Shown here piece by piece: positions 22,378-64,000 of a stretch of 64,000 nt of DNA. Location of the stretch: NCBI GenBank assembly GCA_037045245.1, contig JBAOHR010000009.1:75241-139240 (forward strand), in the 5' to 3' direction. Position numbers and translations under genes: made by a program. Within the stretch, counting starts at the first letter, position 1. Each line of letters starts with the position of its first letter. Below the pieces are notes generated by a model. That model did no database searches, was not told the origin of the DNA, and was given only the letters and a program-made list of their open reading frames with translations. The stretch is from Gemmatimonadales bacterium. GTDB lineage: Bacteria; Gemmatimonadota; Gemmatimonadetes; Gemmatimonadales; GWC2-71-9.

Positions 22378-22842
22378 ATGCCCTTCTCGCGTCCCGCCGC
22401 CCTCGCCCTCGCCGTTCTCCTCGTCGCCGCGTGCGGCGATTCCGGCACCAACTCCGGCAATGAAAGCACTATGACGGCGACGGTCGCCGGCAGCGCCTGG
22501 AGCGGCACGCTGGCCGTGCAGGGCACCCACAATGGCAACGTGCTGGCCATCAGTGGCACCAATGGCACCTACCAGCTCTCGCTGACGATTCCGGGCGTAG
22601 CCGCCACCGGCACCTTCAACTTCGGGCCGGGCAACCTCGGCATCGCCCAGCTGGTCCAGGTCACGACAGGCACGCCCGCGTGGACGACCTCCCTCGTCGG
22701 TGGCACCGGGTCGATCACCGTGACCACGCTCACCGCGACCCGCGCCGCCGGCAGCTTCTCCTTCACGGGCGCCGCGTCGCCTGGCACGTCGGCGACCGGG
22801 ACGCGGGCGGTGACGAGTGGGTCGTTCGATGTGACGTTCTAG
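22378..22842 (+). CDS. Small lipoprotein, unknown function
   Basis: Intact 154-aa ORF with a lipobox (LAVLLVAACGD) and a Thr/Gly/Ser-rich beta-type sequence (TATVAGSAWSGTLAVQGTHNGNVLAISGTNG...). I recognise no domain. Confidence 0.6.
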   Translation: MPFSRPAALALAVLLVAACGDSGTNSGNESTMTATVAGSAWSGTLAVQGTHNGNVLAISGTNGTYQLSLTIPGVAATGTFNFGPGNLGIAQLVQVTTGTPAWTTSLVGGTGSITVTTLTATRAAGSFSFTGAASPGTSATGTRAVTSGSFDVTF

Positions 22843-22943
22843 TCGTTAGTCGTTGGTCGGTAGTCATTTGCACTCGGAGGCCGGCTCCCACTACGGGCAC
22901 CGGCCTTCTTGCGGTCCAACAACGACTAACGACTAACGACTCA
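22840..22943. repeat. Heptad-periodic palindrome between convergent genes (TAGTCGT units), with an inner GC hairpin
   Basis: The left arm is TAGTCGT TAGTCGT TGGTCGG TAGTCAT (22840-22867) and starts with the lipoprotein stop codon. The right arm is AACGACT x3 (22921-22941) and runs into the dipeptidase stop (tca 22941-22943). There is a 15-bp perfect inverted repeat, 22841-22855 / 22920-22934. The inner hairpin is AGGCCGG (22878-22884) / CCGGCCT (22900-22906). Confidence 0.85.
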
Positions 22944-24261
22944 CGATGTCTTCTGCAGCTTCGCCGCCACCTTCTCCACCTCCCCCATCACCCGCAACAG
23001 ATTCCCGCCCCAGATCTTGGCGATCTGCGCCTCGGTGTAGCCGCGCTTCACCATTTCGAGCGTGACGTTGAAGGTCTCGCCGGCGTTCCGCCACCCTTCG
23101 ACGCCGCCACCGCCATCGAAATCCGAAGATGATCCCCACATGGTCGATGCCGATCAATTTGACCGCGTAGTCGATATGGTCGACGAAGTCGGCGACGGTC
23201 GCAGCGGCGTCGGCGGGATAGCGGCGATTGGTGATGTCTTCCTGGGCGGCGAGGTAGCGGTTGCGTGCCTCGTTCGGGAGCGCCTCGACCTGGGCCGTCA
23301 CCTGCGCCTGCTGGGTCGCGGTGATGCCGAACTCCTTCCGCAGGCTGGCGATCGCGTCGCGACGCGCGGAATCGCGCACGGCCGCGTCGGCGTTGCACTT
23401 CACATAACCGTTGAAGGCCACGAGCTGCGCGACGCCGCCATTCTTCGCGAGCGCCCGCAACTGCTCGTCGTCGAGGTTGCGGCTGTGGTTGCAGATCGCC
23501 CGGACACCGGAATGCGACGCAATGATCGGCGCCTTGGTGATTGCCAACGTCTGCATCATCGATTCCTTCGACGGGTGCGAAATGTCGATCATCATCCCGA
23601 CCCGGTTCATCTCGACGATCACCTCGCGACCGAGCGGCGAGAGGCCATGATGCAGCCAGACGCCGTCCCGTTCGCCGGTATTCGAATCGGAGAGCTGGGA
23701 GTGGCCGTTGTGCGCCAGGGACATATACCGGCCGCCAAGGGCATGGAACTTGGCGACGTTCGTGATGTCGGTCCCGATCGAGAAGCCGTTTTCGACCCCG
23801 ATGAAGATGACCTTCTTCCCTTCCTTGTGGATCCGCCGCGCATCCGCGGCCGTCAAGGCGAGCGCGGCCCGGGTCGGCGCGATCGAATCGACCAGCCGGT
23901 GGACCGCCGCAAACTTCTCCAGTGCCTGGGCGTTCGCGCGCGCGAAACTCGCCGGCGTAAGGTCTGCGGACTGTCCGACGTACGCAATCAGGAACGCGCC
24001 GCCGAGGCCACCCTTTTCCATCTTGACCAGGTCGACCTGCTGCCGGCCCGGGAGGTCGGTGCCGTAGTTGGGCATCCCGACGCGAAATGCCGACGGATTG
24101 ATGTCGACGTGGGTATCGATCGACAGGACCTTGTCGTGGATCGCGCGGGCCTTGGCGAGCAGCTTGGCGTCCGGGACGGCCGCTGGTGCCTGAGCGGCCG
24201 CTGGCGACGCGCCAATCGCGGTGAACAGCAGCAGCGGCAAGACGGAACGGAAACGGGTCAC
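22941..24261 (-). pseudogene. Membrane dipeptidase (peptidase M19, renal dipeptidase family); one frame break near the 3' end as written
   Basis: ORF 22933..24603 from GTG 24261 (GGAG upstream) begins VTRFRSVLPLLLFTAIGASPAAAQ. It carries the M19 blocks VLSIDTHVDIN, FLIAYVG, YMSLAHNGHSQLSDS, GMMIDISHPS, IIASHSGVRAICNHSRNL and IGIDHVGI. The C-terminus SSDFDGGGGVEGWRNAGETFNVTLEMVKRGYTEAQIAKIWGGNLLRVM lies in ORF 22941..23141. The break is near 23135. Confidence 0.88.
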
Positions 24262-34230: not shown

Positions 34231-34237
34231 GTCGTTG

Positions 34238-34845: not shown

Positions 34846-35710
34846 GGAGGAGTTCCACGCCTGGCTCGACGGTGCCCTCTCCAAGGTGCAGTCGGCCGAG
34901 ATCGCGGAGCATCTCCTTGGTTGCCTGATCTGCCGTGCGGCGCATTCCGAGGCGGTGGCGGTCCGTGACCGGGCCACCGCCATCCTCGCCTTTGCCGCCC
35001 CCATGGGCCACCGTCGGGCGCTGCCGATGGTCCAGCACACCTCGCGGCGCCGCCAGTCCGCAATCGCCGCGGCCGTGGGCGTCCTGATGCTGGGCGGCTG
35101 GCTCGCCAATCAGCCAGCGACCCTGGCCCTGCCGACGCCTCGCCTCTCGACGATGGCCTTTGTCGCGCCGGCGATGCACGCCTCGTTCCTCGAGACCGCC
35201 GCGCTGCAGGACAACGCGCTGCGCTCGCGGCAGCGCCGCCTCTCGATCGAGTCGACGCTCCGACCCGAGATGGTGCGGCCGGCGGCGCTGGGACGGGTCG
35301 TCACGCTCGCGCCGGTGGTCGAGGTGGACCCGGCCATCAACTGGGAGCCGATCAGCTGGGATGACGCCCTGGCGGCCGCTGGCGGCTCCCTTGCCCGCCT
35401 CGAGGGCCTCCCGGTGACGGGCGTCCGCCTGCAGCGGAACGGCAGCGGCGTCCGGCCGACCTTCTTCGTCAAGCAGCGGCTCCCCGACGGCCGCGCCGTC
35501 TGGGTGATCGAGGGCCCCGAGGACCGCGTCGAGCCCGTCCACGCCGCCGTCGAGGCCTCGGGCCTCTCCTCGTCCGTCGCGCTGCGGACCAAGCCGGACT
35601 ACGTCACCAGTGGCGAGTCGACGGTCCGGACGCTGCGGCTGGTGACGGTCTCGGCGTCGCTGCCGAAGGATTCGGTGGATGCGTTGACGGCGAAGTTGCG
35701 GCTGGAGTAG
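34814..35710 (+). CDS. Anti-sigma factor (zf-HC2 N-terminal domain, one TM, periplasmic domain)
   Basis: Starts at ATG 34814, overlapping the sigma gene by 32 nt. MSRCARPHVPEEEFHAWLDGALSKVQSAEIAEHLLGCLICRAAHSE carries the H-x3-C-x2-C zinc motif. The TM segment is AIAAAVGVLMLGGWLA. Confidence 0.75.
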   Translation: MSRCARPHVPEEEFHAWLDGALSKVQSAEIAEHLLGCLICRAAHSEAVAVRDRATAILAFAAPMGHRRALPMVQHTSRRRQSAIAAAVGVLMLGGWLANQPATLALPTPRLSTMAFVAPAMHASFLETAALQDNALRSRQRRLSIESTLRPEMVRPAALGRVVTLAPVVEVDPAINWEPISWDDALAAAGGSLARLEGLPVTGVRLQRNGSGVRPTFFVKQRLPDGRAVWVIEGPEDRVEPVHAAVEASGLSSSVALRTKPDYVTSGESTVRTLRLVTVSASLPKDSVDALTAKLRLE

Positions 35711-35878
35711 TCCTGAGTCCTGAGTCGTGAGTCCTGAGCGTCGAGGGGCCGGCATTCCAGTTGGGATGCCGGCCCCTTCGCATGTCAGCCGCGAGCACGC
35801 AAGCAGAAGGCCGGCCCATCTACCACAGGGCCGGCCTCCGCAATCTCAGGACTCAGCACTCACCTCTCACAACTTCTA
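35708..35878. repeat. Heptad-periodic stop-codon arrays (GTCCTGA type) flanking two GC hairpins between convergent genes
   Basis: The plus strand reads TA[G TCCTGA] GTCCTGA GTCGTGA GTCCTGA (35710-35737). The minus strand reads CTAGAA GTTGTGA GAGGTGA GTGCTGA GTCCTGA (35878-35846). Between them lie hairpin 1, AGGGGCCGGCAT / ATGCCGGCCCCT (35744-35755 / 35766-35777), and hairpin 2, AGGCCGGCCC / GGGCCGGCCT (35808-35817 / 35828-35837). Confidence 0.85.
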
Positions 35879-47389: not shown

Positions 47390-47432
47390 GTCAGGCGCTG
47401 GACGCACGATTCTTGCGAATGCAGGCGGCGTC

Positions 47433-53328: not shown

Positions 53329-55239
53329 GCACCACCACCGCCCACGACGACGACTTCCTCGCGCTGCAGGATGCGCTGGCCGGGCAATGGTCGCTCGAGC
53401 GCGAGCTCGGGCGGGGCGGGATGGCGACGGTGTACCTGGCGCGCGACGTCTCGCTTGATCGACCGGTTGCTATCAAGGTGCTCGCCACCGAGCATGCGGC
53501 CGACCCGGCGATGCGGGCCCGCTTCGAACGCGAGGCGATCACCAGCGCGCGGTCTCTCGCACCCGCACATCGTGCCGACGTACGCGGTTGCCGAGGCGGC
53601 GGGGCGGCCGTACCTCGTGATGGGCTACATCGACGGCGAGTCGCTGGCGCAGCGGCTGCATCGCGCCGGGCCGTTGCCGGGTGCCGAGGGTGAGCGCGTC
53701 ATCCGGGAGGTCGCCTGGGCGCTCGGGCACGCGCATGCCACCGGCGTGCTGCATCGTGACGTCACGCTCGACAACATCCTGCTCGAACGGAGCACCGGCC
53801 GCGCGGTGCTGGTGGACTTCGGCATCGCCGCGCTGGTCGATGGCGACGGCGATGGCACCCTCCTCGGGACGCCGGCGTATCTGGCGCCCGGAAGTCATTC
53901 AGGGTGAGCCGGCGTCGCGGGCGAGTGACCTCTACGCCCTGGCCACGGTGGCGTGGGCCACCTTTGCCGGGCGGCTCCCCTACCATGGCGAGGACAGCGC
54001 CGCCGTGCTGCTCCAGCAGGTGACGGCCTCGGTGCCGTCGCTCGCGGCCGCGGCACCCGGGGTGCCCCGCCGGATCGTCGCGGCTATCGAGGGAGCGCTC
54101 GCCAAGGCTCCAGTGGAGCGCCCCACGACGGTGGAGGCGTGGATCGGTTCGTGGGAGGGGCATCAGGTGGCAGTGCCTCTCGCAGCGCCACTGGAGCGCT
54201 GGCGCGGGCATTGGAGGCAGGTACGGACGTTTTATGCATTCGCCGCGACGATTACCGCCATGTTCGGGGGAATGGCGGGTGGAGCCGGGGGTTACACCGA
54301 CAACATCGCCCTCTGGATGGCGTACCTACTCATGTTCGCGGTGCCGGGCTTAGTGGTGGCAGCAGCGATCCACGTCGCGATGGCCGCCAACCAGCTCCGA
54401 CGCCTTGCACGATCAGGGTTCGGCATTGAGGATCTTCGACTGACCCTCCGTCGTGCCGATCCGGAATCGTCGCGGACCCCCGTCCCACTGGTGGGCCGGC
54501 TCACCTCGGACGCGGTCGTGATCTCCCTGATTGTCTATCTCGCCATGGCCGTCCATGAGTCCGCCTGGAACCGGACTGGCGGTATGACTGGCTGATTCAG
54601 GACTTCTATCGTGAAGTGGCGAGGTGGGCCTTCGTCGGATTCTGGACGGGCCTTGGGCTCTCGGTGCTGACCCCGACCCGCCCGATGCTCCGCCCCGGCA
54701 CACGCGAGGGGATCCGGCGCGCATTCTGGAACTCCCCGCTCGGCGCGCTCTGGTTCGGCCTGGCGCGGGTCGGGCTCGGCAAGCGGATCGCCGCCGCCGA
54801 GACACTGCACCGCCCGACCGAGCTGGTGCTCGACCTCGCCATCGAGGAGCTGTGGCGCGCCCTGCCGGCCGGCGCGCGCCGGGAGGCGGCCGAGCTGCCG
54901 TCGGTGGCGCGGGACCTCCGCCGCCGGGTGGCCTCGTTGCGCGCCATTGCGGGCCACTTCGGCGACCCGAGTCGCGACTCGCCCGCCGAGGCGGCGCTGC
55001 GGGCGAAGGTGAGTGGGCGCATCACCGCCGCGCTCACGGCGCTCGAGCAGCTCCGGCTTCAGCTCCTGCGGCTCGACGACGCGACGCTGCCGACGGGGGC
55101 CCTCACCGCGCAGCTGCATGACGCCCGCGCGCTGGAGCGGGAGCTGCTGACGGACCTCGGCGCGCACCACGGGATCGGGCGGTTGCTGCGGCGCGGCCCG
55201 GTGCGGCGGTCGCCGGGGATGACGCCGACGCCGGCGTAG
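53325..55239 (+). pseudogene. Membrane Ser/Thr protein kinase, paralogue 4; frame broken at least 3 times as written
   Basis: The N-terminus lies in the frame of ORF 52638 (MSTTTAHDDDFLALQDALAGQWSLERELGRGGMATVYLARDVSLDRPVAIKVL). ORF 53371 follows (LSHPHIVPTYAV...HRDVTLDNILLERSTGRAVLVDFGIA...TPAYLAP), then ORF 53681 (EVIQGEPASRASDLYALATVAW...TM region). ORF 54616 carries the rest (ARWAFVGFWTGLG...LHRPTELVLDLAIEELWRALP...LEQLRLQLLRL...LTAQLHDARALERELLTDLGAHHGIGRLL...TPTPA). Breaks are near 53555, 53890 and 54570. Confidence 0.8.
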
Positions 55240-55244
55240 GAACT

Positions 55245-55361
55245 GGTGAACGGTGAACGGGGAACGGGTGCGAAAGCGGTGAGACGTGAGACGTGAGACG
55301 TGCCCACCCCTGACCTCCGTTTCACGCCTTACGTTTCACCGCATACCGTTCACCGTTCACC
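55245..55361. repeat. Nested heptad-periodic palindrome (GGTGAAC outer arms, GTGAGAC/GTTTCAC inner arms) between convergent genes
   Basis: The outer arms, GGTGAACGGTGAACGG (55245-55260) / CCGTTCACCGTTCACC (55346-55361), form a perfect 16-bp pairing. The inner arms are GTGAGAC x3 (55279-55299) and GTTTCAC GCCTTAC GTTTCAC (55319-55339), complementary only with G-U pairs in the plus-strand RNA. The element starts 6 nt after the kinase-4 stop and ends 12 nt before the phytase-like stop (55373-55375). Confidence 0.85.
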
Positions 55362-55372
55362 CTTCCCCGCCC

Positions 55373-56564
55373 CTACTTCACCGTGCAGTCACTCCGCACC
55401 CCGGTCGCCTTCGCGATCGCCTCCCACGAGATCGCCGCGACGCCACCATCATCATGCACCGCGAAGAGGGCGCCCGGCCGGGAAGCCCGGGAGGGCGCGC
55501 TGCGTCAGCGCGATGCCGTCGGTGTTCTTGATGGTCGGTGACCCGAAGGCGCCGACGTGCGCCAGCGTCTTCCGATCGAAGAGGTGATAGGTGTTGATGA
55601 CCTTCCCCTGATCGGTGGCGACCCAGTAGCCGGCGCTGTCGCCGCAGGCATAGAGGACGATCCCTTCCGCCTGGTTGGGGAAGAAGCGCCGCGGCACCGT
55701 GTCGCCGGTGAAGCGGCCGGCGAGGGTGTAGCGCTTCAGCTGTGACGCCCCTTCCAGCTCCTCCGCGATCAGCAGCTGGTCGTTGGCCGGGTCGGCCATG
55801 ATCGACTCGACCACGCGCAGCACCCCCGGCGCCGTGACGTATCCCCGAAGGTGCGCAGCAAGCGTTGCCGTGGCGCGCCCGCGCTCCACGACGACCTGAT
55901 ACTCCCGCACCCGCCGCCCGAGCGCACTGTCGGGTGGCACCGAGTCCTTCACCAGCTCATAGCTGTCGGTGATCCAGCTCCGGTAGCGCCCGGCCCCCTG
56001 GTCGGCGATGGTGACGCCGTACGGCTTCATCAGGTCGCGCTCGCCGTAAGCTGCCGAGCGGCGTGAACTCCGGACAGCTGCAGTACCTGCACGCGCCGAC
56101 CGTCGCGCTCGACGACCCACAAGCAGATCGCCCGCGCACCGCGAGGCCATTCGGCCGCTCGAACTGCCCCGGCCCGCGTCCCGTGCCGTCCCGACGTCCC
56201 GCAGCCACTTGCCGGTGGCGGCCTCGTGCACGCGAATCAGGTTGCCCGCCTTGGCCGAGACGAGCAGCCACGCTTCACCATTCGGTCCGTGCCAGATCGC
56301 CGGCGAATCGATGTCCATCAACGTGTCGCGGACCGTCTGCCACGCCTCGCTGCACCTGCTGCCGCGACTCGGCAGCGCTGTCCGTTGTGGTCCGCGGCAG
56401 GCGGCGGCGTTGGCGGGACGGCCGCAGGCCGAGACGAGCAGGAGGAGCACCAGCAGGAGTCGACACGCAACGACGAAGGGGCCACGACGCGACCTCGCAC
56501 GGAAAGGAAGGAAGAGCGGATCGGCGACGAATCTTCGCGGTCCCGATGTCACGAACGGCTTCAC
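55373..56564 (-). pseudogene. Beta-propeller phytase-like (3-phytase / BPP domain) lipoprotein; several frame breaks as written
   Basis: ORF 55452..56564 has a lipobox (LLLVLLLLVSACG) and DIDSPAIWHGPNGEAWLLVSAKAGNLIRVHEAATGKWLRDVG, the classic BPP DDPAIW...GL.VYDL pattern. A middle segment, GPGQFERPNGLAV...PEFTPLGS, lies in ORF 55957..56271. The sequence then continues ERDLMKPYGVTIADQGAGRYRSWITDSYE...NQAEGIVLYACGDSAGYWVATDQ...TDGIALTQ. My own translation places the true C-terminus, GALFAVHDDGGVAAISWEAIAKATGVRSDCTVK, in a third frame ending at TAG 55375-55373. Confidence 0.65.
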
Positions 56565-56691
56565 AGGATCAGCCGATGGTCGTGACCGGAATGGGACAGG
56601 TGCCGCACCGCAACCCGTGACAGCCGCGGAGAGAACATCTGCGCGGTCGTATTCCGCACACCATGACCACCTTCGCCTCAGGATCCGTCAC

Positions 56692-59485
56692 ATGCCGCTT
56701 GCCGGTCTGTCCCGCGCCCTCCGCTGGGCCGCGCTGCTCACTGCTTCCTCCCCGCGGCCGCGCATGGCGCAGGGCGCCGTCGCGGGCACCGTCGTCGACG
56801 ACGCGTCCGGCATCGCGCTGACCGGCGTGGTGGTCCGCGTCGAGGGCAGCCACGCGCGAGGTGCTGACAGACCGCACCGGCCGATTCCTCCTCACCGGCC
56901 TCCCGACCGGCCGCCAGGAAATCGTCACGCGCTACATCGGCTATGCCGTGGCGCGCGCCACGGTCGTGGTCGAGAGCGGGCGCACTGCCACCACCATCTT
57001 CCGCCTGCGGTCGGTCACGACCGACCTCGGCACCCTCGTGGTCACCGCCACGCGGAGCGGCCAGGCCTCGGCGCTCAACCAGCAGCAGAACGCCGCCAAC
57101 GTGACCAACGTCGTCGCCGCCGACCAGATCGGTCGCTTCCCGGACGCCAACATCGGCGACGCGCTGAAGCGCATCCCGGGCATCACCGTTGCGATCGACC
57201 AGGGCGAGGCCCGCTTCGGCTCGATCCGCGGCACCGAGCCGCGCTTCAATTCGGTGATGGTCAACGGCGAGCGCGTGCCCTCGGCCGAGGCGGAGGTGCG
57301 CCAGGTGCAGCTCGACCTGATTCCGGCGGACATGGTGCAGGCGGTCGAGGTGAACAAGTCGCTCACGCCGGAGATGGATGCCGACGCGATCGGTGGGGCC
57401 GTCAACATCGTGACGCGGGCCGCTCCCGCCGGCTTCCGCCTCTCGACCACGCTCGGCTCCGGCTACAACTGGATCCGCAACGAGCCGGTCCTGCTCGGCT
57501 CCGCCATCATCGGCACGCGCTTCCTCAACGACCGCCTCGGCGTCATCGCGAGCGGCTCGTACTACGACCAGCAATACGGCTCCGACAACAAGGAAGGGGT
57601 CTGGGACAAGAGCGGCACCGGCGCGGTGTACATGACCCAGTTCGACGTCCGCCGCTATGACATCCAGCGGATCCGCAAGTCGGTCTCCGGCTCGGTGGAC
57701 TACCGGTTCGACGCAGGCAACACGGTGATGTTCCGCGCGATCTACAACAACCGCAACGACTGGGAGAACCGCTTCCGCGCCCGCTACGCCTTTGGCGCAC
57801 CGAACGCGAGCGGCGTCCAGAACACCGAGATCCGCCGGCAGACGAAGGGCGGCGGCCCGGCCGACCGCCTCAAGGATGCGCGGCTGGAGGATCAGCGCAC
57901 CCAGAGCTACCAGCTCTCGGGCGAGCACCTCTTCGGCCGCCGGGGCCAGCTCAGCTGGTCGGCGTCGACGGCGAAGGCCTCCGAGAGCCGCCCGGATGAG
58001 CGCTACATCGACTGGCGCGTGCGGAACATCGCCTACACGGCCGACTATTCGGACGAACAGACGCCCCAGTTCGCGCCCGTCAATCCCGCGCTGGTGACCC
58101 CGGACCGCTACACCTTCCGGCGGATCGAGCAGTTGGAGAGCTTCACCGAGGATCGCGACCGCAACGGGCGCCTGGACCTCCGGCTGCCGCTGGTGGATGG
58201 CGATCGGGGCACCACGCTGAAGGTGGGCGCGCGGTACCGCGACAAGGAGAACCTCCGCGACAACAGCTACAATTTTGCGGCACCCGTCACGGGGAGCGCC
58301 TTTGCCAACCTGACGCTCAAGGGCAATGCCGACTTCACGACCGATCGGAACTACGCCGGCAACTATCAGTACGGTGTCTTCACGACGCCGGCCCAGCTGG
58401 CCGCGCTTGACCTCTTCAACGCCTCGCAGTTCACGCTGACCGACCAGCCGGCGGAGTACGCGGCAGGCAACTTCACCGCCACCGAGACCATCACCGCCGG
58501 CTACGCCCAGGTCGAGCAGCGCCTCGGCGCGGCGGTGTCGCTGATCGGCGGGGCCCGCGTGGAACGGACCAAGGTGGACTACCGCGGCTTCGAGTTCAAC
58601 GTGGACGACGAGACGGTCTCGCCCACCAGCGGCGGCCAGTCCTACACCGATGTGCTCCCCAGCGTGAACCTGCGCTGGCAGGCCGCGCCGAGCACCGTCG
58701 TCCGTGCCGCCTGGACGAACTCGCTGGCTCGGCCGAACTACTATGACCTCGTCCCGTACCGCTCCGTCTCGCTCGACGACGACGAGCTCTCGACCGGCAA
58801 CCCCGACCTCAAGCCGACCCGGGCGATGAACCTCGACCTGACCGCGGAGCGCTACTTCGCCTCCGTCGGCCTCCTGTCCGGCGGGATCTTCCACAAGCAG
58901 ATCGACGACTTCATCTACAACTTCACCGCGTTCAATGAAGTGGACGCGGTCACCGGGCGGACCTTCGCCCAGATCTCCCGGCCCCGGAACGGCGCCAAGG
59001 CGCGCCTCACCGGCGCCGAAGTCGCCGTGCAGCGCCAGCTGGACTTCCTTCCCGGCATGCTGAAGGGGCTGGGGATCTACCTCAACTACACCTACACCGA
59101 TTCGAAGGTGGAGGGGCTCGACATCGCCGGCCGGGAGAACGAGAAGCTGCCGCTCCTCGGCACCGCGAAGCACAGCGCGAACGCCTCCCTCTCCTACGAC
59201 GGCAGCCGGCTCTCCTTCCGCGTGGCGCTCAACTACCAGAGCGAATCGCTCGACGCCGGCGAGGGCGGGTACAATGAGGATGCCTTCTTCGACCGCTGGG
59301 CGGACCGGCGGACCGACATCGATGCCAACGCCTCGTTCGCGCTGACCCCGAAGGCGCGGTTCTTCGTCGAGGCGAACAACCTCAACAACCGCCCGCTCCG
59401 CTACTACCAGGGCACCCGCGGCCGCCTGGCCCAGGACGAGTTCTACGGCCGGCGCGTGCAGACGGGGTTGAAGATCGACTTCTAG
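56692..59485 (+). pseudogene. TonB-dependent receptor with N-terminal carboxypeptidase-regulatory-like domain; one frame break as written
   Basis: The signal peptide and start of the CarbopepD_reg domain lie in the frame of ORF 56209 (MPLAGLSRALRWAALL...GAVAGTVVDDASGIALTGVVVRVEGSHA). The rest lies in ORF 56861..59485 (VLTDRTGRFLLTGLPTGRQEIVTRYIGYA...TonB box/plug LGTLVVTATRSG...FPDANIGDALKRIPGITV...GSIRGTEPRFNSVMVNGERVPSAE...). The barrel ends RRVQTGLKIDF with the terminal Phe. The break is near 56855. Confidence 0.88.
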
Positions 59486-59494
59486 CGGCAAGGC

Positions 59495-59558
59495 GGTGAA
59501 ACGTGAAAGGTGAAACGGGCGCCCAGGGCTGGGCACGTTTCACCTTTCACGCTTCACG
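59495..59558. repeat. Heptad-periodic palindrome, GTGAAAC/GTGAAAG type, copy 1 (after the TonB-dependent receptor)
   Basis: GGTGAAACGTGAAAGGTGAAACG (59495-59517) pairs with CGTTTCACCTTTCACGCTTCACG (59536-59558) at 21 of 23 positions. The 18-nt spacer itself folds (GCCCAG gg CTGGGC, 59521-59534). Confidence 0.9.
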
Positions 59559-59563
59559 CCGTA

Positions 59564-59591
59564 CACAGGCCACAGGTCACTGGTCACTGGT
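59564..59591. repeat. Unpaired tandem heptads CACAGGC CACAGGT CACTGGT CACTGGT
   Basis: Four consecutive 7-nt units lie directly after copy 1 of the palindrome. I found no inverted partner within 200 nt. The minus strand reads ACCAGTG ACCAGTG ACCTGTG GCCTGTG, with TGA spanning the unit boundaries in the first two. Confidence 0.8.
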
Positions 59592-59685
59592 CGCCGCGCC
59601 CCGACGGCCGCGGCTGACGGCATCCCATTGCCCTCCCCCGGCCCCGCCCCTAACTTGCTTGCTGACAAGTAAGCGAGGTCCGCCG

Positions 59686-60363
59686 ATGTCGCGCCCCCCT
59701 GCCACCCCCCTCCCCCCGCGCCTCCGCGACGCCGAGCGGAGCCGCGCCGCGATCCTCGAGGCCGGCGCCGAGCTCTTTGCGGAGCAGGGCTACGAGGCCA
59801 CCTCGCTCGCCGCCGTCGGCGTGCGCGCGGGCCTCTCGCGCGGGACGCCGGGCTACTTCTTCGGCTCCAAGGCCGAGCTCTACCACGCCGTGCTGGAGCA
59901 CGCCTTTGCCGATGCCCTCGAGGCGATCCGCGCCGGGCGCCTCCGGGCGATGCGGAGCGCGCGCCCGCCGGCCGAGGTGCTGGCCGGCGTCGTCTCCGAC
60001 TACGTGGACTTCGTGGCGGCCCACCCGAACTTTCTCCGCCTGATCCAGCGCGAGGCGCTCGGGGAGGGGGCTGGCCTCGACCCGCGTTCGCTCCGGCAGG
60101 CGGTGGGGAGCGAGGCGGTCACCGCCCTGGCGCAGGAACTCGGCTTTCCGCCGCGCGCGCGGACGCAGGTGATGCACCTGCTGCTGTCGATGCTCGCCCT
60201 GACCTGGTTCCCCGCCCTGCACGACACGACCCTCGTGCCGGCGATCGGCTTCGATCGACCCTCCCCGGCGTTCCTCGCCGCCCGCAAGCGGCACATCACC
60301 ACCCTGCTCCTCGGCGCCCTGCCCTCGCGGCGCGCCACCCCGTCCAAGCGGAGTGCCCGATGA
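59686..60363 (+). CDS. TetR/AcrR-family transcriptional regulator
   Basis: ORF 59503..60363, with the start at ATG 59686. RSRAAILEAGAELFAEQGYEATSLAAVGVRAGLSRGTPGYFFGSKAELYHAVLE is the TetR HTH. The stop overlaps the start of the acyl-CoA dehydrogenase (ATGA). Confidence 0.9.
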   Translation: MSRPPATPLPPRLRDAERSRAAILEAGAELFAEQGYEATSLAAVGVRAGLSRGTPGYFFGSKAELYHAVLEHAFADALEAIRAGRLRAMRSARPPAEVLAGVVSDYVDFVAAHPNFLRLIQREALGEGAGLDPRSLRQAVGSEAVTALAQELGFPPRARTQVMHLLLSMLALTWFPALHDTTLVPAIGFDRPSPAFLAARKRHITTLLLGALPSRRATPSKRSAR

Positions 60364-62198
60364 CCGACCTGCTCACGCCCCCAGCCGCCCCTGCCGCCCC
60401 GTCGGTCGACGAGGCACGTGCCGTCGCCGAAGCGGCCCGCGAAGCGGAGTGGACCGCACCGTCCTTCCTGCGCGAGCTCTTTGCCGGCCGGCTCCCGATC
60501 GGACTGGTGCATCCCTTTCCCGCCCCCGACCCGGCGATGGTCGCCAAGGCCGCTCCGTTCCTGACCGAACTCGAGCGGTTCCTCCGCGAGGAAGTCGACA
60601 GCGATGCGATCGATCGGGCCGGCAAGGTCCCGGCCGACGTGATCCAGTCGCTCCGCGAGATGGGGGCCTTCGGCATCAAGATCGACGAGCAGTACGGCGG
60701 CCTCGGCCTCTCGCAGTTGATGTACACCAAGGCGATCGGCATGGTGACGTCCCAGGACGGCTCGCTGACCGCCCTCCTCTCGGCGTCGCAGTCGATCGGC
60801 GTTGCCGTGCCGCTCAAGCTCTTCGGCACCCCGGAGCAGAAGCAGCGCTACCTGCCCCGTCTGGCGCAGGGCGCGATCTCGGCGTTCGCGCTGACCGAGA
60901 CCGGCGTCGGCTCCGACCCGGCCGGCCTCACCACGACCGCCGAGCCGAGCGACGACGGGACGCACTGGATCCTCAACGGCGAGAAGCTCTGGTGCACCAA
61001 CGGCCCGGTCGCCGAGGTGATGGTGGTGATGGCGAAGACCGGCAAGCGGATCACCGCGTTCATCGTCGAGGCCGACATGCCCGGCGTCGAGGTGGTGCAC
61101 CGTCTCGGCTTCATGGGACTCAAGGCGATCGAGAACGGCGTGATGCGCTTCACCAACGTGAAGGTGCCCGCCGAGAACGTCATCTGGGGCGAGGGGAAGG
61201 GCCTGAAGCTGGCGCTGATCACCCTCAACACCGGGCGGCTCACGCTGCCGGCCTCGGGGGTCGCGGGCGCCAAGCGTGCACTCCAGATCGCCAGGAAGTG
61301 GGCCGCGACGCGCACGCAGTGGGGCAAGCCGATCGGCAAGCACGACGCGGTGGCGCAGATGATCGGCAGGATGACCGCCGACACCTTCGCGATGGAGGCG
61401 GTCGCGGAACTCGCCTCGCTGCTCGCCGATCGCGGCGACACCGACATCCGCCTCGAGGCGGCGATCGCCAAGCTGTGGAACTCGGAAATCAGCGGCCGGA
61501 TCGTCGACGACTGCCTGCAGATCAAGGGAGGACGCGGCTACGAGACCGCCGATTCGCTCCGGATGCGCGGCGAGGTCCCGGACCCGGTCGAGCGGATGTA
61601 CCGCGACTCGCGCATCAACCGGATCTTCGAGGGATCCAGCGAGATCATGCGACTGTTCATCGCGCGCGAGGCGGTTGACGCGCACCTCAAGGTCGCCGGC
61701 GACCTCATCGACCCGCGCACGCCGCTCGGCACCAAGTTCTCCGCCCTGCTCCGCTCGGCCGTCTTCTATGCCGGCTGGTATCCGCGACTCTGGATCGGCA
61801 CCGAGTGGCTGCGCTTCGGCGGCTTCGGGAAACTGGCAGGCCACCTGCGCTTCGTCGGCCGACGTTCCCGCAAGCTGGCGCGCACGTTGTTCCACGCGAT
61901 GGTGCGTTTCGGCCCGAAGCTCGAGCAGCGGCAGGCGGTGCTCTTCCGCCTGGTCGACGTCGGCGCCGAACTGTTCGCGATGACGGCGGCGATCAGCCGG
62001 GCCGAGACGATGGCGCGTGACGGCAACCGGGATGCGATCGCGGTGGCCGACGTCTTCTGCCGCCATGCGCGGCAACGCGTGGACCACCTCTTCCGGCAGG
62101 CCTTCGGACCGGACGATGTGGCGACGTACCAGTTGGCACAGCGGGTCGTGAAGGAAGAGATGACGTGGCTGGAGGAGGGAATTGTTCGTGGAGCGTGA
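60360..62198 (+). CDS. Long-form acyl-CoA dehydrogenase (ACAD core plus C-terminal helical extension, VLCAD/FadE-like)
   Basis: Intact 612-aa ORF: ...GAFGIKIDEQYGGLGLS...AFALTETGVGSDPAGLTTTA...WILNGEKLWCTNGPVAEVMVVMAKT...ENGVMRFTNVKVPAENVIWGEGKGLK...QIKGGRGYET...ERMYRDSRINRIFEGSSEIM, followed by a tail of about 170 aa. Confidence 0.88.
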   Translation: MTDLLTPPAAPAAPSVDEARAVAEAAREAEWTAPSFLRELFAGRLPIGLVHPFPAPDPAMVAKAAPFLTELERFLREEVDSDAIDRAGKVPADVIQSLREMGAFGIKIDEQYGGLGLSQLMYTKAIGMVTSQDGSLTALLSASQSIGVAVPLKLFGTPEQKQRYLPRLAQGAISAFALTETGVGSDPAGLTTTAEPSDDGTHWILNGEKLWCTNGPVAEVMVVMAKTGKRITAFIVEADMPGVEVVHRLGFMGLKAIENGVMRFTNVKVPAENVIWGEGKGLKLALITLNTGRLTLPASGVAGAKRALQIARKWAATRTQWGKPIGKHDAVAQMIGRMTADTFAMEAVAELASLLADRGDTDIRLEAAIAKLWNSEISGRIVDDCLQIKGGRGYETADSLRMRGEVPDPVERMYRDSRINRIFEGSSEIMRLFIAREAVDAHLKVAGDLIDPRTPLGTKFSALLRSAVFYAGWYPRLWIGTEWLRFGGFGKLAGHLRFVGRRSRKLARTLFHAMVRFGPKLEQRQAVLFRLVDVGAELFAMTAAISRAETMARDGNRDAIAVADVFCRHARQRVDHLFRQAFGPDDVATYQLAQRVVKEEMTWLEEGIVRGA

Positions 62199-62250
62199 AC
62201 AGCCATAGTTGACCGGTGAAGCGTGCAGTGCGGTGACGCGAGGGGTAAGA

Positions 62251-62305
62251 GGTGAAAGGTGAAAGGTGAAACGGCGAGGAGACTCGCGTTTCACCTTTCA
62301 TCTTT
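62251..62305. repeat. Heptad-periodic palindrome, GTGAAAG type, copy 2 (after the acyl-CoA dehydrogenase)
   Basis: GGTGAAAGGTGAAAGGTGAAACGGCGAG gaga CTCGCGTTTCACCTTTCATCTTT: a hairpin of about 24 bp (62255-62305) with a GAGA tetraloop, one bulge and one G-U pair. It is preceded by degenerate units (GGTGAAG CGTGCAG ... GGTGACG) from 62215. Confidence 0.9.
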
Positions 62306-62465
62306 GCGCGAAGTACTCACTCACGCCCGCATGTGCCACTTCGCGGGAACTCCGGCGTCATCCCTTCTGTCCGCGCACTGATGCTTCGCGCGGCGCATGC
62401 ATCGATCCGCACCCGATACTAGCCAGACCACTGGCGCATCCTTTCCTGTTACCCCGGAGCACCTC

Positions 62466-63119
62466 ATGAATCGCACTGCACTCTTCACTGCCCTCATGCT
62501 CTCCGCCGCCGTGGCGGCGTGTAGCGATGACCCCACCGGCAACGGCGACCCTGGTCCGATCCTCGTGGTCGGGAGCGACATGGGCGTCAGGTTCCAGAAC
62601 TTCACCCTCAGCCGCGATGGGGCACCGCTGACGAACGCGGTGGTCAAGATCAATGGCACCACCGTGCCGAACAGCGGGACGGGGAGCTACAGCTACGATC
62701 TCGGGACGCCCCTCACCGCCGGACAGGAACTGGTGCTTCGCGTGGAGCACGATGGCGACGTCGTCGAGGGACGGGCCACCATCATCGACGGCCCCACGTT
62801 GACGGCACCGGCGGCGGACCAGCTGATCACCTTCGGGCAGCCGCTGACCGTCACCTGGACCTCCACGGCGCAGCCAGATTTCTGGGTCACCACGCTGACC
62901 TACACCAACGCAGGGGCAGGCAACGGGGTGACCGATTCCCTTCCCCCGGCGGCGCGGACCAGCGTCCTGGCAACGACGACCGTCCCCGCCACGGCGATCA
63001 ACCCCGCAGCCGGCGTCTACAGCTATCTGCGAGGCACGTTCACCGGCCCCGCGGCGGCCGGTTCGACGATGAAGGTGCGCACCGGCTCTGCCACGGTGAA
63101 CTTGGTCAAGGCGCCGTAG
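62466..63119 (+). CDS. Lipoprotein, unknown function
   Basis: ORF 62397..63119, with the start at ATG 62466 (MNRTALFTALMLSAAVAACSD lipobox). The sequence is beta-rich and Thr/Gly-rich. I recognise no domain. Confidence 0.6.
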   Translation: MNRTALFTALMLSAAVAACSDDPTGNGDPGPILVVGSDMGVRFQNFTLSRDGAPLTNAVVKINGTTVPNSGTGSYSYDLGTPLTAGQELVLRVEHDGDVVEGRATIIDGPTLTAPAADQLITFGQPLTVTWTSTAQPDFWVTTLTYTNAGAGNGVTDSLPPAARTSVLATTTVPATAINPAAGVYSYLRGTFTGPAAAGSTMKVRTGSATVNLVKAP

Positions 63120-63128
63120 CGGGAACGA

Positions 63129-63188
63129 CGTGAAACGTGAAAGGTGAAACGGTCCGCAAGAGCGACGTTTCACCTTTCACGTATCACG
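63129..63188. repeat. Heptad-periodic palindrome, GTGAAAC/GTGAAAG type, copy 3 (between convergent lipoprotein and OMP genes)
   Basis: CGTGAAACGTGAAAGGTGAAACG (63129-63151) pairs with CGTTTCACCTTTCACGTATCACG (63166-63188) at 22 of 23 positions, with a 14-nt loop. Its left arm is identical to copy 1 over 22 nt. Confidence 0.9.
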
Positions 63189-63209
63189 GCTCCTTTCCGG
63201 ACAGCCGCG

Positions 63210-63875
63210 TCAACGCCTCACGCCCACCACCACGGTCGGATTCCAATTGCCGACAATCCCACCCGAGTAGTTGTGAATCAGCCGCGTCATGCGTCCCTCG
63301 ACGAACAGCGCCACCGGCCACGAGGTCGGGCGCGCCGTGACCCCCGCCCCGAGGTGACCCTGCAGCGCCGGATCGTTGAAGCTGCCCTCGAAGGTGAAGT
63401 TCTCGAGCCGGTCGCCGTTGTCATCGGTCACCACTTGCTGCTCGTGCTCGCGCACGGTCAGATAGCCGAGGCCGACGAGGGCGTAGGGCCGCACCGGGCC
63501 ACTGCCGGGGGCGAAGCGCAGCGTGGTCCCGAGCGACCAGCCGGTGTCGCGGTTGCGACTGTCGAAGTGGCATGGTCCCGTGCCGCCGCCGGGGAGGAAG
63601 CAGGTCGTACTCGACTGGCGGTGGATCTCGTTCAGCCGCTCCATGCCGCCCTCGAGCGCCAGGGACAGGTGCGCCCGGCTCAGCAGGTCGACACCGACGC
63701 GGACGAACCGTGCCGTGGTCCGACTGGGAGTCGCCGAGACGGCCCTCCATCTTGGTGTAGCCGGCACCGAGGGAGATCCGCTGCGCCGAGAGGGGGAGGG
63801 CCGCCGAGGTCAGGAGCAGGACGAACAACGACCCGCGCGTCAGGGTCGTGCGAATGGCAGTGATGGGTGCAGCCA
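63210..63875 (-). pseudogene. Outer-membrane beta-barrel protein (OmpW/OMP_b-brl-like); one frame break as written
   Basis: The N-terminus lies in ORF 63421..63909 from ATG 63875 (GGAGG upstream): MAAPITAIRTTLTRGSLFVLLLTSAALPLSAQRISLGAGYTKMEGRLGDS. The remainder lies in ORF 63210..63767 (FVRVGVDLLSRAHLSLALEGG...PYALVGLGYL...ALFVEGRMTRL...). It shows alternating beta-strand patterns. The break is near 63715. Confidence 0.6.
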
Positions 63876-64000
63876 TGGGAACCTCCAGGTTGGTCAAGCG
63901 TCCGGCCACCCACCGAAACGGGGCGCCGGACGCGGACCTAACGGTAAGCCGAACGCGTTTGTTTCAAAACGTTACGAGACATCCTCGAACAGCACCCGCC

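What the first reader, a model, noticed from the sequence alone, without database searches (positions are those of the whole stretch)
59483..63188. Three near-identical palindromes built from 7-nt GTGAAAC/GTGAAAG units sit on gene stop codons and close all three reading frames
Three arrays of three 7-nt units lie right after three stop codons: the TonB-dependent receptor (TAG 59483), the acyl-CoA dehydrogenase (TGA 62196) and a lipoprotein gene (TAG 63117). The arrays are GGTGAAAC-GTGAAAG-GTGAAACG (59495), GGTGAAAG-GTGAAAG-GTGAAACG (62251) and CGTGAAAC-GTGAAAG-GTGAAACG (63129). Each is followed, after a 4-18 nt loop, by its reverse complement. This gives 21-24 bp stems with at most 2 mismatches.

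The stems are far more AT-rich than anything else in this GC-rich window, and they have no U tract.

The unit is 7 nt and contains TGA, so successive TGAs rotate through the frames. They fall at offsets 14, 21 and 28 from the annotated stop at both 59483 and 63117. At 62196 they fall at 57, 64 and 71, preceded by TAG/TGA/TGA at offsets 10, 14 and 21. The reverse-complement arm does the same on the other strand: TGAs at offsets 26, 33 and 40 from the stop of the convergent OMP gene at 63212.

Copies 1 and 3 share even the stop codon and flank (TAGCGG, then an 11-nt spacer).

I do not recognise this as a named repeat family. Possible roles are:
- atypical bidirectional terminators;
- an all-frame translational stop device, useful in a genome where off-frame stops are rare;
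- REP/MITE-like mobile palindromes;
- protein-binding arrays.
Basis: partly seen in the sequence, partly recalled or inferred. Interest (0 to 1): 0.78.

Follow-up and report, generated by a model that had tools for sequence, protein, structure and literature searches.

The report
Heptamer-repeat hairpins at gene ends
The three palindromes are real; they are local examples of a widespread, poorly understood class of bacterial 7-nt tandem repeats that here form long hairpins at gene 3' ends, most likely acting as two-way transcript-end structures rather than a purpose-built "stop in every frame" device.

Summary
Three (GTGAAAS)x3 arrays follow three stop codons, and each pairs with an inverted copy to give a 19-25-nt arm match (0 expected by chance).

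They are not isolated. The window holds 13 period-7 arrays with other units (TAGTCGT, TGAGTCC, GTGAGAC, GGTGAAC). Array hairpins occupy all four non-overlapping convergent gene junctions and no divergent one.

In relatives, orthologous sites carry arrays of different unit, copy number or period (7, 8 or 13 nt), or only a GC hairpin.

(GTGAAAS)x3 occurs in many phyla and is no commoner than composition-matched heptads.

Inverted array pairs almost always have a purine-rich 5' arm and a pyrimidine-rich 3' arm (44 vs 6). Ordinary terminator-like hairpins in the lineage share this polarity.

Stop triplets are not enriched in such units generally (135/228 vs 134.7 expected). Many arrays in relatives have none.

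Best reading: these are heptameric simple-sequence repeats, like Xanthomonas GGGAATC pairs, cyanobacterial STRR and Geobacter paired repeats. They form the outer stems of bidirectional 3'-end hairpins and are remodelled by slippage. Closing all frames is a real effect but probably a by-product.

The kind is known, this member is new, and the function is untested.

The parts
59483..59485 (+). TAG stop of the TonB-dependent receptor gene (56861-59485)
   Evidence: Pfam TonB_dep_Rec_b-barrel and Plug; sequence
59492..59560 (.). Copy 1 hairpin. 5' arm (GTGAAAC GTGAAAG GTGAAAC) 59496-59516; GC tip GCCCA-GGGC-TGGGC 59521-59534; 3' arm 59537-59557.
   Evidence: I2: 25 nt, 92%; 118-nt segment -63.4 kcal/mol, z -6.2
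59571..59592 (+). Single (GGTCACT)x3 array between copy 1 and the TetR-family gene (59659-60363). TGA is on the minus strand only; no inverted partner.
   Evidence: TRF; sequence; Pfam
62196..62198 (+). TGA stop of the acyl-CoA dehydrogenase gene (60360-62198)
   Evidence: Pfam
62252..62307 (.). Copy 2 hairpin. 5' arm (GTGAAAG GTGAAAG GTGAAAC) 62252-62272; tip GCGAG-GAGA-CTCGC 62274-62287; 3' arm GTTTCACCTTTCATCTTTGC 62288-62307.
   Evidence: I16; -60.3 kcal/mol, z -4.9. Conserved with fewer clear units in relative L122 11891-11938.
63117..63119 (+). TAG stop of the putative lipoprotein gene (62397-63119)
63127..63190 (.). Copy 3 hairpin between convergent genes. 5' arm 63130-63150; loop 63151-63166; 3' arm 63167-63187.
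   Evidence: I4: 23 nt, 96%; + strand -49.0, - strand -48.7 kcal/mol
63210..63212 (-). TGA stop of the convergent gene 63210-63767
55240..55369 (.). Composite hairpin between convergent genes 54616-55239(+) and 55452-56564(-). Outer arms (GGTGAAC)n 55240-55267 and (GTTCACC)n 55345-55369. Inner arms (GTGAGAC)x3.4 55279-55302 and GTTTCAC-type 55320-55342, paired partly through G.U.
   Evidence: I1, I9; -73.8 kcal/mol, z -7.2
22840..22946 (.). Hairpin between convergent genes 22378-22842(+) and 22933-24261(-). (TAGTCGT)x3.7 at 22840-22865; GC hairpin about 22877-22911; (AACGACT)x3.7 at 22921-22946. Both stop codons lie inside the arrays.
   Evidence: I17; -60.1 kcal/mol, z -7.7
35708..35878 (.). 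Junction of convergent genes 34814-35710(+) and 35876-37141(-). (AGTCCTG)x4.3 at 35709-35738 starts in the TAG stop. Two GC-rich hairpins at 35745-35776 and 35808-35837. Inverted TGAG-type heptads at 35845-35878 end in the other gene's TAG.

Best explanation
The three palindromes are heptameric simple-sequence repeats, of the kind long known to be over-represented in bacterial intergenic DNA. In this lineage they form the outer stem of bidirectional 3'-end hairpins.

How it works, with shown and inferred steps marked:

(a) Shown: each element lies just past a stop codon. It consists of a purine-rich 5' arm of about three 7-nt units, a locus-specific GC-rich tip, and the complementary pyrimidine-rich 3' arm. 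Because it is a palindrome, transcripts from either direction see the same order.

(b) Inferred: in RNA the tip nucleates and the arms zip into a stem of about 25-30 bp. This stem either helps release the transcript or blocks 3'-to-5' exonucleases and so sets the mature 3' end. For release, the U/C-rich 3' arm with its UUU triplets would give a weak RNA:DNA hybrid in place of a continuous U tract.

(c) Shown by comparison: the arms are made and remodelled by slipped-strand mispairing. Copy number changes, one variant unit spreads through a single arm, and whole unit types (and even the period) are replaced at orthologous sites, while position and architecture persist.

(d) Shown as an effect, inferred to be a by-product: the units contain TGA and 7 = 1 mod 3, so three units close all three frames on both strands.
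For: Location:
- Array hairpins occupy all four non-overlapping convergent junctions of the window and 0/5 divergent gaps.
- In about 880 kb from relatives, arrays are in 25% of convergent, 9% of co-directional and 7% of divergent gaps.

Structure:
- MFE is -41 to -74 kcal/mol, z = -3.5 to -7.7. GC tips are flanked by repeat arms.

Polarity:
- The 5' arm is purine-rich in 15 vs 1 inverted array pairs (relatives plus window) and 29 vs 5 (loci from many phyla). This includes units with no stop triplet.
- Ordinary GC hairpins at convergent gaps without arrays show the same flank polarity, 12 vs 1.
- A canonical U-tract terminator at about 47354-47392 is itself preceded by two GAACG-type heptads.

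Turnover with positional conservation:
- The ACAD-downstream hairpin is conserved in L122 with two clear units instead of three.
- The lipoprotein site carries GTGAGGG/GTGAGGA arms in L122.
- Across ACAD orthologues the site carries GGGGTGA, GTGAGAG, GGTGAGTT, AGTACGRA, GGTGCGGA, AGTGCGTG, ACGCAGAG or AGCCGTC arrays, or only a GC hairpin.
- GTGAGAC is homogenised in one arm and pairs by G.U with a GTTTCAC partner.

Class membership:
- Period 7 dominates the non-triplet periods (window 13 vs 2/4/3 for periods 8/10/11).
[quoted passage not shown] Position is conserved while length and sequence vary between species (PMC4692102).
- Geobacter has paired sites on opposite strands, each of 3-5 tandem 7-9-mers (PMC2700814).
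Against: - There are no transcript data, so termination or stabilisation is inferred only.
- The consensus terminator scan does not flag the elements, because they lack a T run.
- A test for RNA-level, strand-specific selection was inconclusive. Sense folds were more stable than antisense in 5 of 8 one-sided sites. Copy 1 goes the wrong way.
- Some arrays in relatives sit only on the 5' side of a GC hairpin and are not part of a stem (L171, L179, L197). About 7% of divergent gaps also have arrays.
- Enrichment at 3' ends could partly reflect weaker constraint there.
- The reason for a 7-8-nt period is unexplained.
Confidence: 0.5

Rival explanations
1. Neutral slippage repeats. The arrays are non-functional simple-sequence repeats that accumulate where constraint is lowest, in 3' flanks and especially between convergent genes. 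They stop expanding at the coding boundary. The hairpin symmetry comes from template switching in pre-existing palindromes.
For: - Unit, copy number and period turn over quickly at orthologous sites.
- GTGAAAS is no commoner than composition-matched heptads (23 loci against 30, 90, 10 and 8).
- Stop content is as expected from composition.
- Many relatives have only a GC hairpin at the same site.
- Mrazek et al. 2007, as summarised in PMC4679880, attribute the heptamer excess to polymerase slippage.
Against: - The strong purine-first polarity of inverted pairs (44 vs 6) is not predicted by slippage.
- 4/4 convergent junctions in the window carry arrays.
- The arms stay 92-96% complementary, including the order of unit variants (C,G,C mirrored in copies 1 and 3).
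- The architecture persists while the sequence is replaced.
Confidence: 0.2
2. All-frame translational firewall. TGA- or TAG-bearing 7-nt units are selected because three units stop read-through or frameshifted ribosomes in every frame on both strands. This would be valuable in a 70% GC genome where off-frame and antisense frames stay open for hundreds of codons.
For: - In the window every array hairpin closes all three frames soon after the stop, whereas most array-free 3' flanks leave at least one frame open for more than 110 nt.
- The stop-bearing arm is always the 5' arm.
- Arrays next to stops: sense-strand stops 24/53 vs 15.2 expected, antisense 6.
- Antisense ORFs of 932 and 764 aa are bounded by the arrays.
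- Array-adjacent genes in the window end in TAG 7/10 times against 7/49 for the rest. TGA back-ups would suit this.
Against: - The excess disappears when arrays are grouped by unit family. By my hand grouping of the and lists, about 8 families have a stop and about 17 do not.
- Units with no stop on either strand are equally common in relatives (ACGCAGAG, GGTGCGGA, AGTACGGA, GCAGACGC, GGCGGAAG and the 13-mers).
- Stop content across 228 arrays from many phyla is 135 vs 134.7 expected.
- The stop-free (TGGAAAS)x3 is as frequent as (GTGAAAS)x3.
- The G of TGA is substituted as often as other unit positions.
- Most genes in the window have no such device.
- The TAG association is absent in relatives.
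- The Xanthomonas GGGAATC repeats occupy the same position, and by my own inspection of that unit it has no stop triplet on either strand (position: PMC4692102).
Confidence: 0.1
3. REPIN/MITE-like mobile palindromes. The GTGAAAS hairpins are copies of a small non-autonomous element that spreads locally and lands at gene ends.
For: - Three near-identical arm pairs lie within 3.7 kb. Copies 1 and 3 share the unit-variant order (C,G,C) and the TAGCGG flank.
- The copy-3 site carries a different array in L122.
- A 4.2-kb indel relative to L122 is bounded by array hairpins.
- L165 has two homologous copies of an element of roughly 170-180 nt with octamer-array termini and a conserved central hairpin.
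- Many metagenome contigs end inside arrays.
Against: - The window copies share no internal sequence and no target-site duplication. Only the arrays align.
- At least four unrelated unit types occur in 64 kb.
- The ACAD-site hairpin is orthologous and stable between the window and L122.
- The arms are tandem arrays, not the imperfect palindromes of REP units.
- No transposase was examined.
Confidence: 0.12
4. Periodic protein-binding arrays. A multimeric DNA- or RNA-binding protein (a global regulator, a nucleoid protein, or an S1/cold-shock-type RNA binder) reads the units at 7-nt spacing.
For: - Copy number is typically 3-5 (PMC4692102; PMC2700814).
- Geobacter paired tandem repeats were annotated as putative global-regulator sites.
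- MacGregor proposed S1, Csp or CsrA binding for TAACTGA repeats.
- Many GTGA-type units create Shine-Dalgarno-like strings such as GAGGTGA, GGAGGTG and AAGGTGA.
Against: - Unit sequences differ widely within one genome and at orthologous sites.
- The period varies between 7, 8 and 13.
- No candidate protein was identified.
Confidence: 0.08

Closest known systems
Xanthomonas GGGAATC (and Nostoc GGGGAYT) heptameric repeats, Rehm et al. 2015 (PMC4692102)
   Same: Tandem 7-nt units, mostly about four copies. Intergenic and under-represented between divergent ORFs. Within 50 bp of, or overlapping, the stop codon with the purine/G-rich strand as sense. About 70 cases per genome occur as convergent inverted pairs able to form stem-loops. 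Position is conserved between species while length and sequence vary.
   Different: Those units are G-tract repeats that form G-quadruplexes. By my own inspection GGGAATC carries no stop triplet. GTGAAAS cannot form a G4, contains TGA, and here forms near-perfect hairpins around a GC tip. The relatives L123/L124 do carry a G4-type GGGGTGA array at the ACAD site.
Long simple sequence repeats with a heptanucleotide excess (Mrazek et al. 2007, as summarised in PMC4679880 and PMC4692102) and cyanobacterial STRR heptamers (Calothrix PCC7601 heptanucleotides cited in PMC4692102; the STRR name and Mazel 1990 reference are from memory)
   Same: Head-to-tail 7-nt repeats, over-represented relative to other non-triplet periods, intergenic, and phylogenetically scattered. 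The proposed origin is slippage.
   Different: Those descriptions do not stress the inverted-pair hairpin architecture, the stop-codon adjacency or the polarity seen here.
Geobacter metallireducens paired tandem-repeat sites (Aklujkar et al. 2009, PMC2700814)
   Same: Pairs of sites on opposite strands, each with 3-5 tandem 7-9-nt repeats (GTTGCTYN, TCTCCGTS[Y], MTYCTGA), separated by a variable distance, with tens of copies per genome.
   Different: They were interpreted as global-regulator binding sites. Their relation to stop codons and terminators was not analysed in the text I read.
TAACTGA direct repeats of marine Beggiatoaceae (MacGregor 2015, PMC4679880)
   Same: Intergenic heptamer arrays of 2-6 copies. 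The unit contains stop codons, so arrays cannot extend into coding sequence. Found in several phyla.
   Different: They lie mostly just upstream of start codons, almost never as inverted pairs (one indirect repeat among 170 sets), and a role in translation initiation was proposed.
Bidirectional intrinsic (Rho-independent) terminators
   Same: They lie between convergent genes or at operon ends. A GC-rich stem-loop has an A-rich (purine) 5' flank and a U-rich (pyrimidine) 3' flank that can extend the stem.
   Different: There is no continuous U tract, only UUU triplets every 7 nt. The flanks are tandem repeats, and the stems are far longer than typical terminators.
REP/REPIN elements (Bertels and Rainey 2011, PMC3116915, listed but not read)
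   Same: Extragenic inverted doublets forming hairpins, often at gene 3' ends. The arms are conserved more than the loops.
   Different: REP units are themselves imperfect palindromes, occur in hundreds of near-identical copies and depend on a RAYT transposase. Here the arms are tandem heptads of several unrelated types, and no RAYT was examined.

Membership tests
Heptameric simple sequence repeats (LSSR / STRR type) | Head-to-tail iteration of a 7-nt unit, about 3 or more copies | tested here: met
   TRF finds 13 period-7 arrays of 2.7-4.3 copies in the window
Heptameric simple sequence repeats (LSSR / STRR type) | Period 7 over-represented among periods that are not multiples of three | tested here: met
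   Window: 13 arrays (period 7) vs 2, 4 and 3 (periods 8, 10, 11). Diverse loci: 367 vs 69, 42 and 48. In more distant relatives, period 8 is as common as 7.
Heptameric simple sequence repeats (LSSR / STRR type) | Intergenic location | tested here: met
   By my reading, 12 of the 13 window arrays are intergenic or overlap only a stop codon. The exception is a weak array at 50823-50841.
Heptameric simple sequence repeats (LSSR / STRR type) | Copy-number and sequence variation between related genomes | tested here: met
   Window vs L122 at two orthologous sites; ACAD orthologues
Xanthomonas-type inverted heptamer pairs (Rehm 2015) | Convergent inverted pairs of about four units near a stop codon, purine/G-rich strand as sense | tested here: met
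Xanthomonas-type inverted heptamer pairs (Rehm 2015) | G-tract unit able to form a G-quadruplex | tested here: not met
   GTGAAAS, TAGTCGT and TGAGTCC have no G tracts. Only the relatives L123/L124 have GGGGTGA.
Intrinsic (Rho-independent) terminator | GC-rich stem-loop at the 3' end of a transcription unit | tested here: met
   GC tips and long stems; convergent and operon-end positions
Intrinsic (Rho-independent) terminator | U tract (at least 5 T in 8) immediately 3' of the stem | tested here: not met
   The consensus scan of 46000-64000 flags none of the elements. The 3' arms carry only TTT triplets.
Intrinsic (Rho-independent) terminator | Transcripts end at the site | not testable with these tools
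   No RNA 3'-end data available
REP / REPIN | One conserved imperfect-palindrome unit of 20-40 nt in many copies, as inverted doublets | tested here: inconclusive
   Three doublets with conserved arms in 64 kb. The arms are tandem heptads, not palindromes. Other loci use unrelated units. Genome-wide copy number is unknown.
REP / REPIN | Cognate RAYT (Y1) transposase in the genome | not tested
   Only 10 of about 60 window proteins were scanned. The rest of the genome is not available.
MITE | Copies share internal sequence and are flanked by target-site duplications | tested here: not met
   Alignment A1 shows only the arrays conserved and no direct-repeat flanks. The L165 element does have conserved internal sequence.
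Any Rfam family | Score at or above the family gathering threshold | tested here: not met
   Only a tRNA passes. The permissive scan gives sub-threshold miRNA-precursor look-alikes, i.e. generic long hairpins.

The most novel reading that the evidence does not exclude
Purine-first, pyrimidine-last tandem-repeat arms of 7-8 nt are a general, unrecognised substitute for the A and U tracts of bidirectional terminators in GC-rich bacteria, continually rebuilt by slippage. In this particular lineage the TGA-bearing 'GGTGA' unit family is additionally kept because it stops ribosomes in every frame before they enter the hairpin or the antisense strand of the neighbouring gene.
Probability: 0.2. Interest if true: 0.65.

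Novelty: new member of a known kind. Interest (0 to 1): 0.4.

Why it matters
Heptamer repeats are among the most over-represented short repeats in bacterial intergenic DNA, yet in the papers I could search and read their function remains unestablished. This window, with its relatives, shows three regularities that any explanation must meet:
- The repeats sit at gene ends, above all between convergent genes.
- Inverted pairs have a fixed purine-then-pyrimidine polarity, shared with ordinary terminator-like hairpins.
- The site and architecture persist while the repeat unit, its copy number and even its period are replaced.

If the repeats really act as terminator or 3'-end-protecting stems, they would be a source of quickly tunable 3'-end signals in GC-rich genomes. 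They would also be a practical annotation cue for operon ends in metagenome-assembled genomes. They break assemblies too, since many contigs end inside them.

Tried and rejected
- **Rfam.** Gathering and permissive scans found nothing relevant.
- **GTGAAAS as a special, cross-phylum motif.** Rejected. The genome scan hit its 120-locus limit in many phyla. Composition-matched heptads are about as frequent, or more so, in viral contigs: 23 against 30, 90, 10 and 8.
- **General stop-triplet enrichment in heptad units.** Rejected. The modest sense-strand excess next to stop codons does not survive grouping by unit family.
- **Conservation of the TGA core among unit variants.** Not seen in the diverse loci: G3 was substituted 23 times, as often as G1 and A5.
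- **MITE signature.** No shared internal sequence or target-site duplication in the window.
- **Sense versus antisense RNA stability at one-sided sites.** Inconclusive, 5 vs 3.
- **TAG-stop association.** Significant in the window but absent in relatives.
- **Orientation of single GTGAAAS arrays after ORF ends in diverse genomes.** 36 sense vs 12 antisense. The crude ORF caller placed 40 of 120 arrays inside 'genes', and any ORF running into a stop-bearing array must end there. I do not lean on this result.
- **Identifying the organism.** The only exact-match contig is a 4.4-kb Logan contig. tblastn of window proteins against the named genome loci gave at most 50% identity. Taxonomy is left open.
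- **Mrazek et al. 2007.** Not held in the library, so it is cited only through two papers that summarise it.

Full report
**1. The observation**

The sequence is as described.
- Copy 1: after the TAG of a TonB-dependent receptor (56861-59485; Pfam) come 10 nt and then GTGAAAC-GTGAAAG-GTGAAAC (59496-59516).
- Copy 2: after the TGA of an acyl-CoA dehydrogenase (60360-62198) come 53 nt and then GTGAAAG-GTGAAAG-GTGAAAC (62252-62272).
- Copy 3: after the TAG of a putative lipoprotein (62397-63119) come 10 nt and then GTGAAAC-GTGAAAG-GTGAAAC (63130-63150).

Each array is followed by its reverse complement. The arms are 25 nt at 92%, 19 nt at 95% and 23 nt at 96% complementary. The 21-nt pattern, allowing three mismatches, matches six times against none in 100 shuffles. 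Five matches are hairpin arms and one is a shifted register of copy 2.

As RNA the three loci fold at -49 to -63 kcal/mol, with z-scores of -4.9 to -7.7.

Two statements need trimming. The stems are low in GC (47-50% against a 70% mean) but are not the lowest in the window. Only the arrays are shared between the copies, while loops and flanks differ.

**2. The three copies belong to a larger set**

TRF finds 13 period-7 arrays in the window, against 2, 4 and 3 for periods 8, 10 and 11. They use other units as well:
- (TAGTCGT)n and (AACGACT)n flank a GC hairpin at 22840-22946.
- (AGTCCTG)n starts inside the TAG at 35708 and is mirrored by TGAG-type heptads at 35845-35878, on the far side of two GC-rich hairpins.
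- A composite hairpin at 55240-55369 has (GGTGAAC)n outer arms and (GTGAGAC)x3 inner arms.
- A single (GGTCACT)x3 array lies at 59571-59592.

All the inverted pairs fold into long hairpins.

With the lipoprotein-like ORF 22378-22842 included (GC3 0.90), all four non-overlapping convergent junctions carry array hairpins. No divergent gap does. At 22.8 kb and 35.7 kb the stop codons are part of the arrays.

**3. Relatives**

A metagenome scan with the dehydrogenase returned 80 loci.

L122 is about 85% identical in DNA and syntenic.
- It keeps the dehydrogenase-downstream hairpin, with two clear units instead of three.
- At the lipoprotein site it has GTGAGGG/GTGAGGA arms instead of GTGAAAS, with an unrelated small palindrome inserted in the loop.
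- It lacks window 55240-59485 altogether.

Across dehydrogenase orthologues of 60-96% identity, the same site shows many states.
- Inverted pairs or arrays directly after the stop: GGGGTGA x4-5, GTGAGAG x7-10, GGTGAGTT x3, ACGCAGAG, AGCCGTC, AGCCATC/ACGGCTG.
- Arrays on the 5' side only: AGTACGRA x4, GGTGCGGA x4, AGTGCGTG x6.
- Or just a GC hairpin.

In 945 kb of this lineage, intergenic arrays of period 7 (36), 8 (48) and 13 (19) are common and usually come as inverted pairs.

Arrays are found in 25% of convergent gaps, 9% of co-directional gaps and 7% of divergent gaps.

So the position and the architecture persist, while the unit, the copy number and even the period do not.

**4. Wider distribution**

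(GTGAAAS)x3 hit the 120-locus limit of the genome collection. The hits were in Chloroflexota, Bacteroidota, Nitrospirota, Proteobacteria, Verrucomicrobiota, Gemmatimonadota and Bacillota, at 36-71% GC.

In those loci the arrays usually sit beside other heptad arrays that differ by a base or two, and often have an inverted partner.

The unit is not special. In viral contigs it occurs in 23 loci. Composition-matched units occur in 30 loci (TGGAAAS, no stop), 90 (GATGAAS), 10 (GGTAAAS) and 8 (GAGTAAS).

**5. Testing the all-frame-stop idea**

The effect is real in the window. Array-bearing 3' flanks close all frames quickly, and most other flanks leave a frame open beyond 110 nt.

The evidence for selection is weak.
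- In 228 non-seed heptad arrays from many phyla, a stop triplet is present on at least one strand in 135, against 134.7 expected from letter-shuffled units.
- Next to stop codons in the lineage, sense-strand stops are 24/53 against 15.2 expected, and antisense 6. Most of the positives belong to one GTGA-type family. By my hand grouping, about 8 unit families have a stop and about 17 do not. The stop-less ones include ACGCAGAG, GGTGCGGA, AGTACGGA, GCAGACGC, GGCGGAAG and the 13-mers.
- Among unit variants in the diverse loci, the G of TGA is substituted as often as other positions.
- An excess of TAG stops at array-adjacent genes in the window (7/10 against 7/49) is not seen in relatives.

**6. 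What does generalise: polarity**

In inverted array pairs the 5' arm is purine-rich and the 3' arm pyrimidine-rich. The counts are 15 against 1 in the lineage and 29 against 5 in the diverse loci, and this includes units without stops.

A palindrome reads the same from both strands, so this polarity is an intrinsic property of the element.

It is the polarity of bidirectional intrinsic terminators, which have an A-rich 5' flank and a U-rich 3' flank. Ordinary GC hairpins at convergent gaps in the same lineage show it too, 12 against 1.

Rehm et al. reported the matching rule for Xanthomonas heptamers: the G-rich strand is the sense strand within 50 bp of the stop codon (PMC4692102).

From established knowledge, RNA:DNA hybrids with a pyrimidine-rich RNA strand are comparatively weak. 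That is the logic of the U tract. I infer, without a test, that the pyrimidine-rich arm plays that part here.

**7. How the arms evolve**

- At 55279-55302 the variant GTGAGAC fills one arm perfectly, while its partner arm keeps GTTTCAC-type units. The two still pair through G.U in the + strand RNA. This indicates homogenisation within an arm.
- Copy number differs between the window and L122.
- Whole unit types are replaced at orthologous sites.

These are signatures of slipped-strand mispairing, the origin proposed for the heptamer excess by Mrazek et al. 2007 (as summarised in PMC4679880, and PMC4692102).

Arm complementarity, including the mirrored order of unit variants, is nevertheless maintained.

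**8. Rivals**

- *Mobile-element origin.* It is not excluded. Copies 1 and 3 share variant order and the TAGCGG flank. A 4.2-kb indel is bounded by array hairpins. L165 carries two homologous copies of an element of roughly 170-180 nt with octamer-array ends and a conserved central hairpin. Against this, the window copies share no internal sequence or target-site duplication, and several unrelated unit types coexist.
- *Single sequence-specific binding protein.* It is hard to reconcile with the diversity of units.
- *Purely neutral repeats.* This does not explain the polarity or the maintained pairing.
- *Strand-specific RNA selection.* A test comparing sense and antisense fold energies was inconclusive.

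**9. Verdict**

The elements belong to a known but functionally unresolved class. This class comprises heptameric simple-sequence repeats, often as inverted pairs at stop codons (PMC4692102), with parallels in Geobacter (PMC2700814) and in Beggiatoaceae and cyanobacteria (PMC4679880).

The most likely role is as the repeat-built outer stem of bidirectional 3'-end hairpins (confidence 0.5). Frame closure is probably a by-product.

No transcript data exist, so every functional statement here is inference.

Noticed in passing
window 55240-59485, compared with L122 9129-9236: The phytase-like and TonB-receptor genes are absent from the 85%-identical syntenic relative L122. The junctions are GGCGTAG|GAACTGG and CTTCTAG|CGGCAAGG, and L122 reads GGCGTAG|CGGCGAGG. 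The 4.2-kb indel therefore starts right after one TAG stop and ends with another, and is bounded by heptad hairpins.
   Followed up: partly
L122 9149-9220 and 12791-12865; L124 2325-2400: A palindromic element of about 75 nt (GTCATCCCGAGCRACGCGAGGGATCTGCG...CTCACTGCGYTCGGGATGAC) sits in the loop of heptad hairpins in relatives but is absent from the window. A similar core (GTCATCCTGAGCGTAGCGAAGGATC) recurs in Chloroflexota loci L055 and L060.
   Followed up: partly
L165 7930-8150 and 19365-19585: These are two homologous copies of an element of roughly 170-180 nt (82% column identity over the aligned 220 nt, which includes flanks). It has GCAGACGC/CTGCGCGT octamer arrays at its ends and a conserved central hairpin. 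In a distant relative it looks like a dispersed, possibly mobile, repeat-armed palindrome.
   Followed up: partly
window, stop codons of the 10 array-adjacent genes: Seven of the ten end in TAG, against 7 of 49 other genes (window totals: TGA 39, TAG 14, TAA 6). This is not reproduced in relatives. There, array-adjacent genes instead show more TAA (12/38 against 47/519).
   Followed up: partly
window 59571-59592: A single (GGTCACT)x3 array with no inverted partner lies about 65 nt upstream of a TetR-family gene (59659-60363). It might be an operator or promoter element rather than part of the 3'-end hairpin.
   Followed up: no
window 47340-47392: A canonical intrinsic terminator (GC stem plus CCGTTTTGTC) downstream of gene 47000-47332 is preceded by two heptads, TGGAACG and TGAACGG. 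It resembles a minimal version of the repeat-flanked hairpins.
   Followed up: no
L024 3924-4217 (Methylotuvimicrobium sp. KM1) and L047 1718-1885 (Methylomicrobium sp. wino1): Very long GTGAAAG arrays (42 and 24 units) are followed by a second heptad array (TTCTCTA or TTCACTA). The flanks look similar in the two methanotroph genomes.
   Followed up: no
L123, L132, L144, L152, L162 (contig ends): Several metagenome contigs end inside or at a tandem array. The arrays therefore appear to break assemblies, through multi-copy units or copy-number heterogeneity.
   Followed up: no
window 34219-34278: This is the lowest-GC 60-nt stretch of the window (43%). It lies between genes 33469-34230 and 34255-34845, upstream of a zf-HC2 (anti-sigma-like) gene, and may be a promoter region.
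   Followed up: no
window 22175-22247 (-): This is the only Rfam hit above threshold, a tRNA gene. My GC3-based gene caller placed a gene (20923-22215) overlapping it, so that call is doubtful.
   Followed up: no
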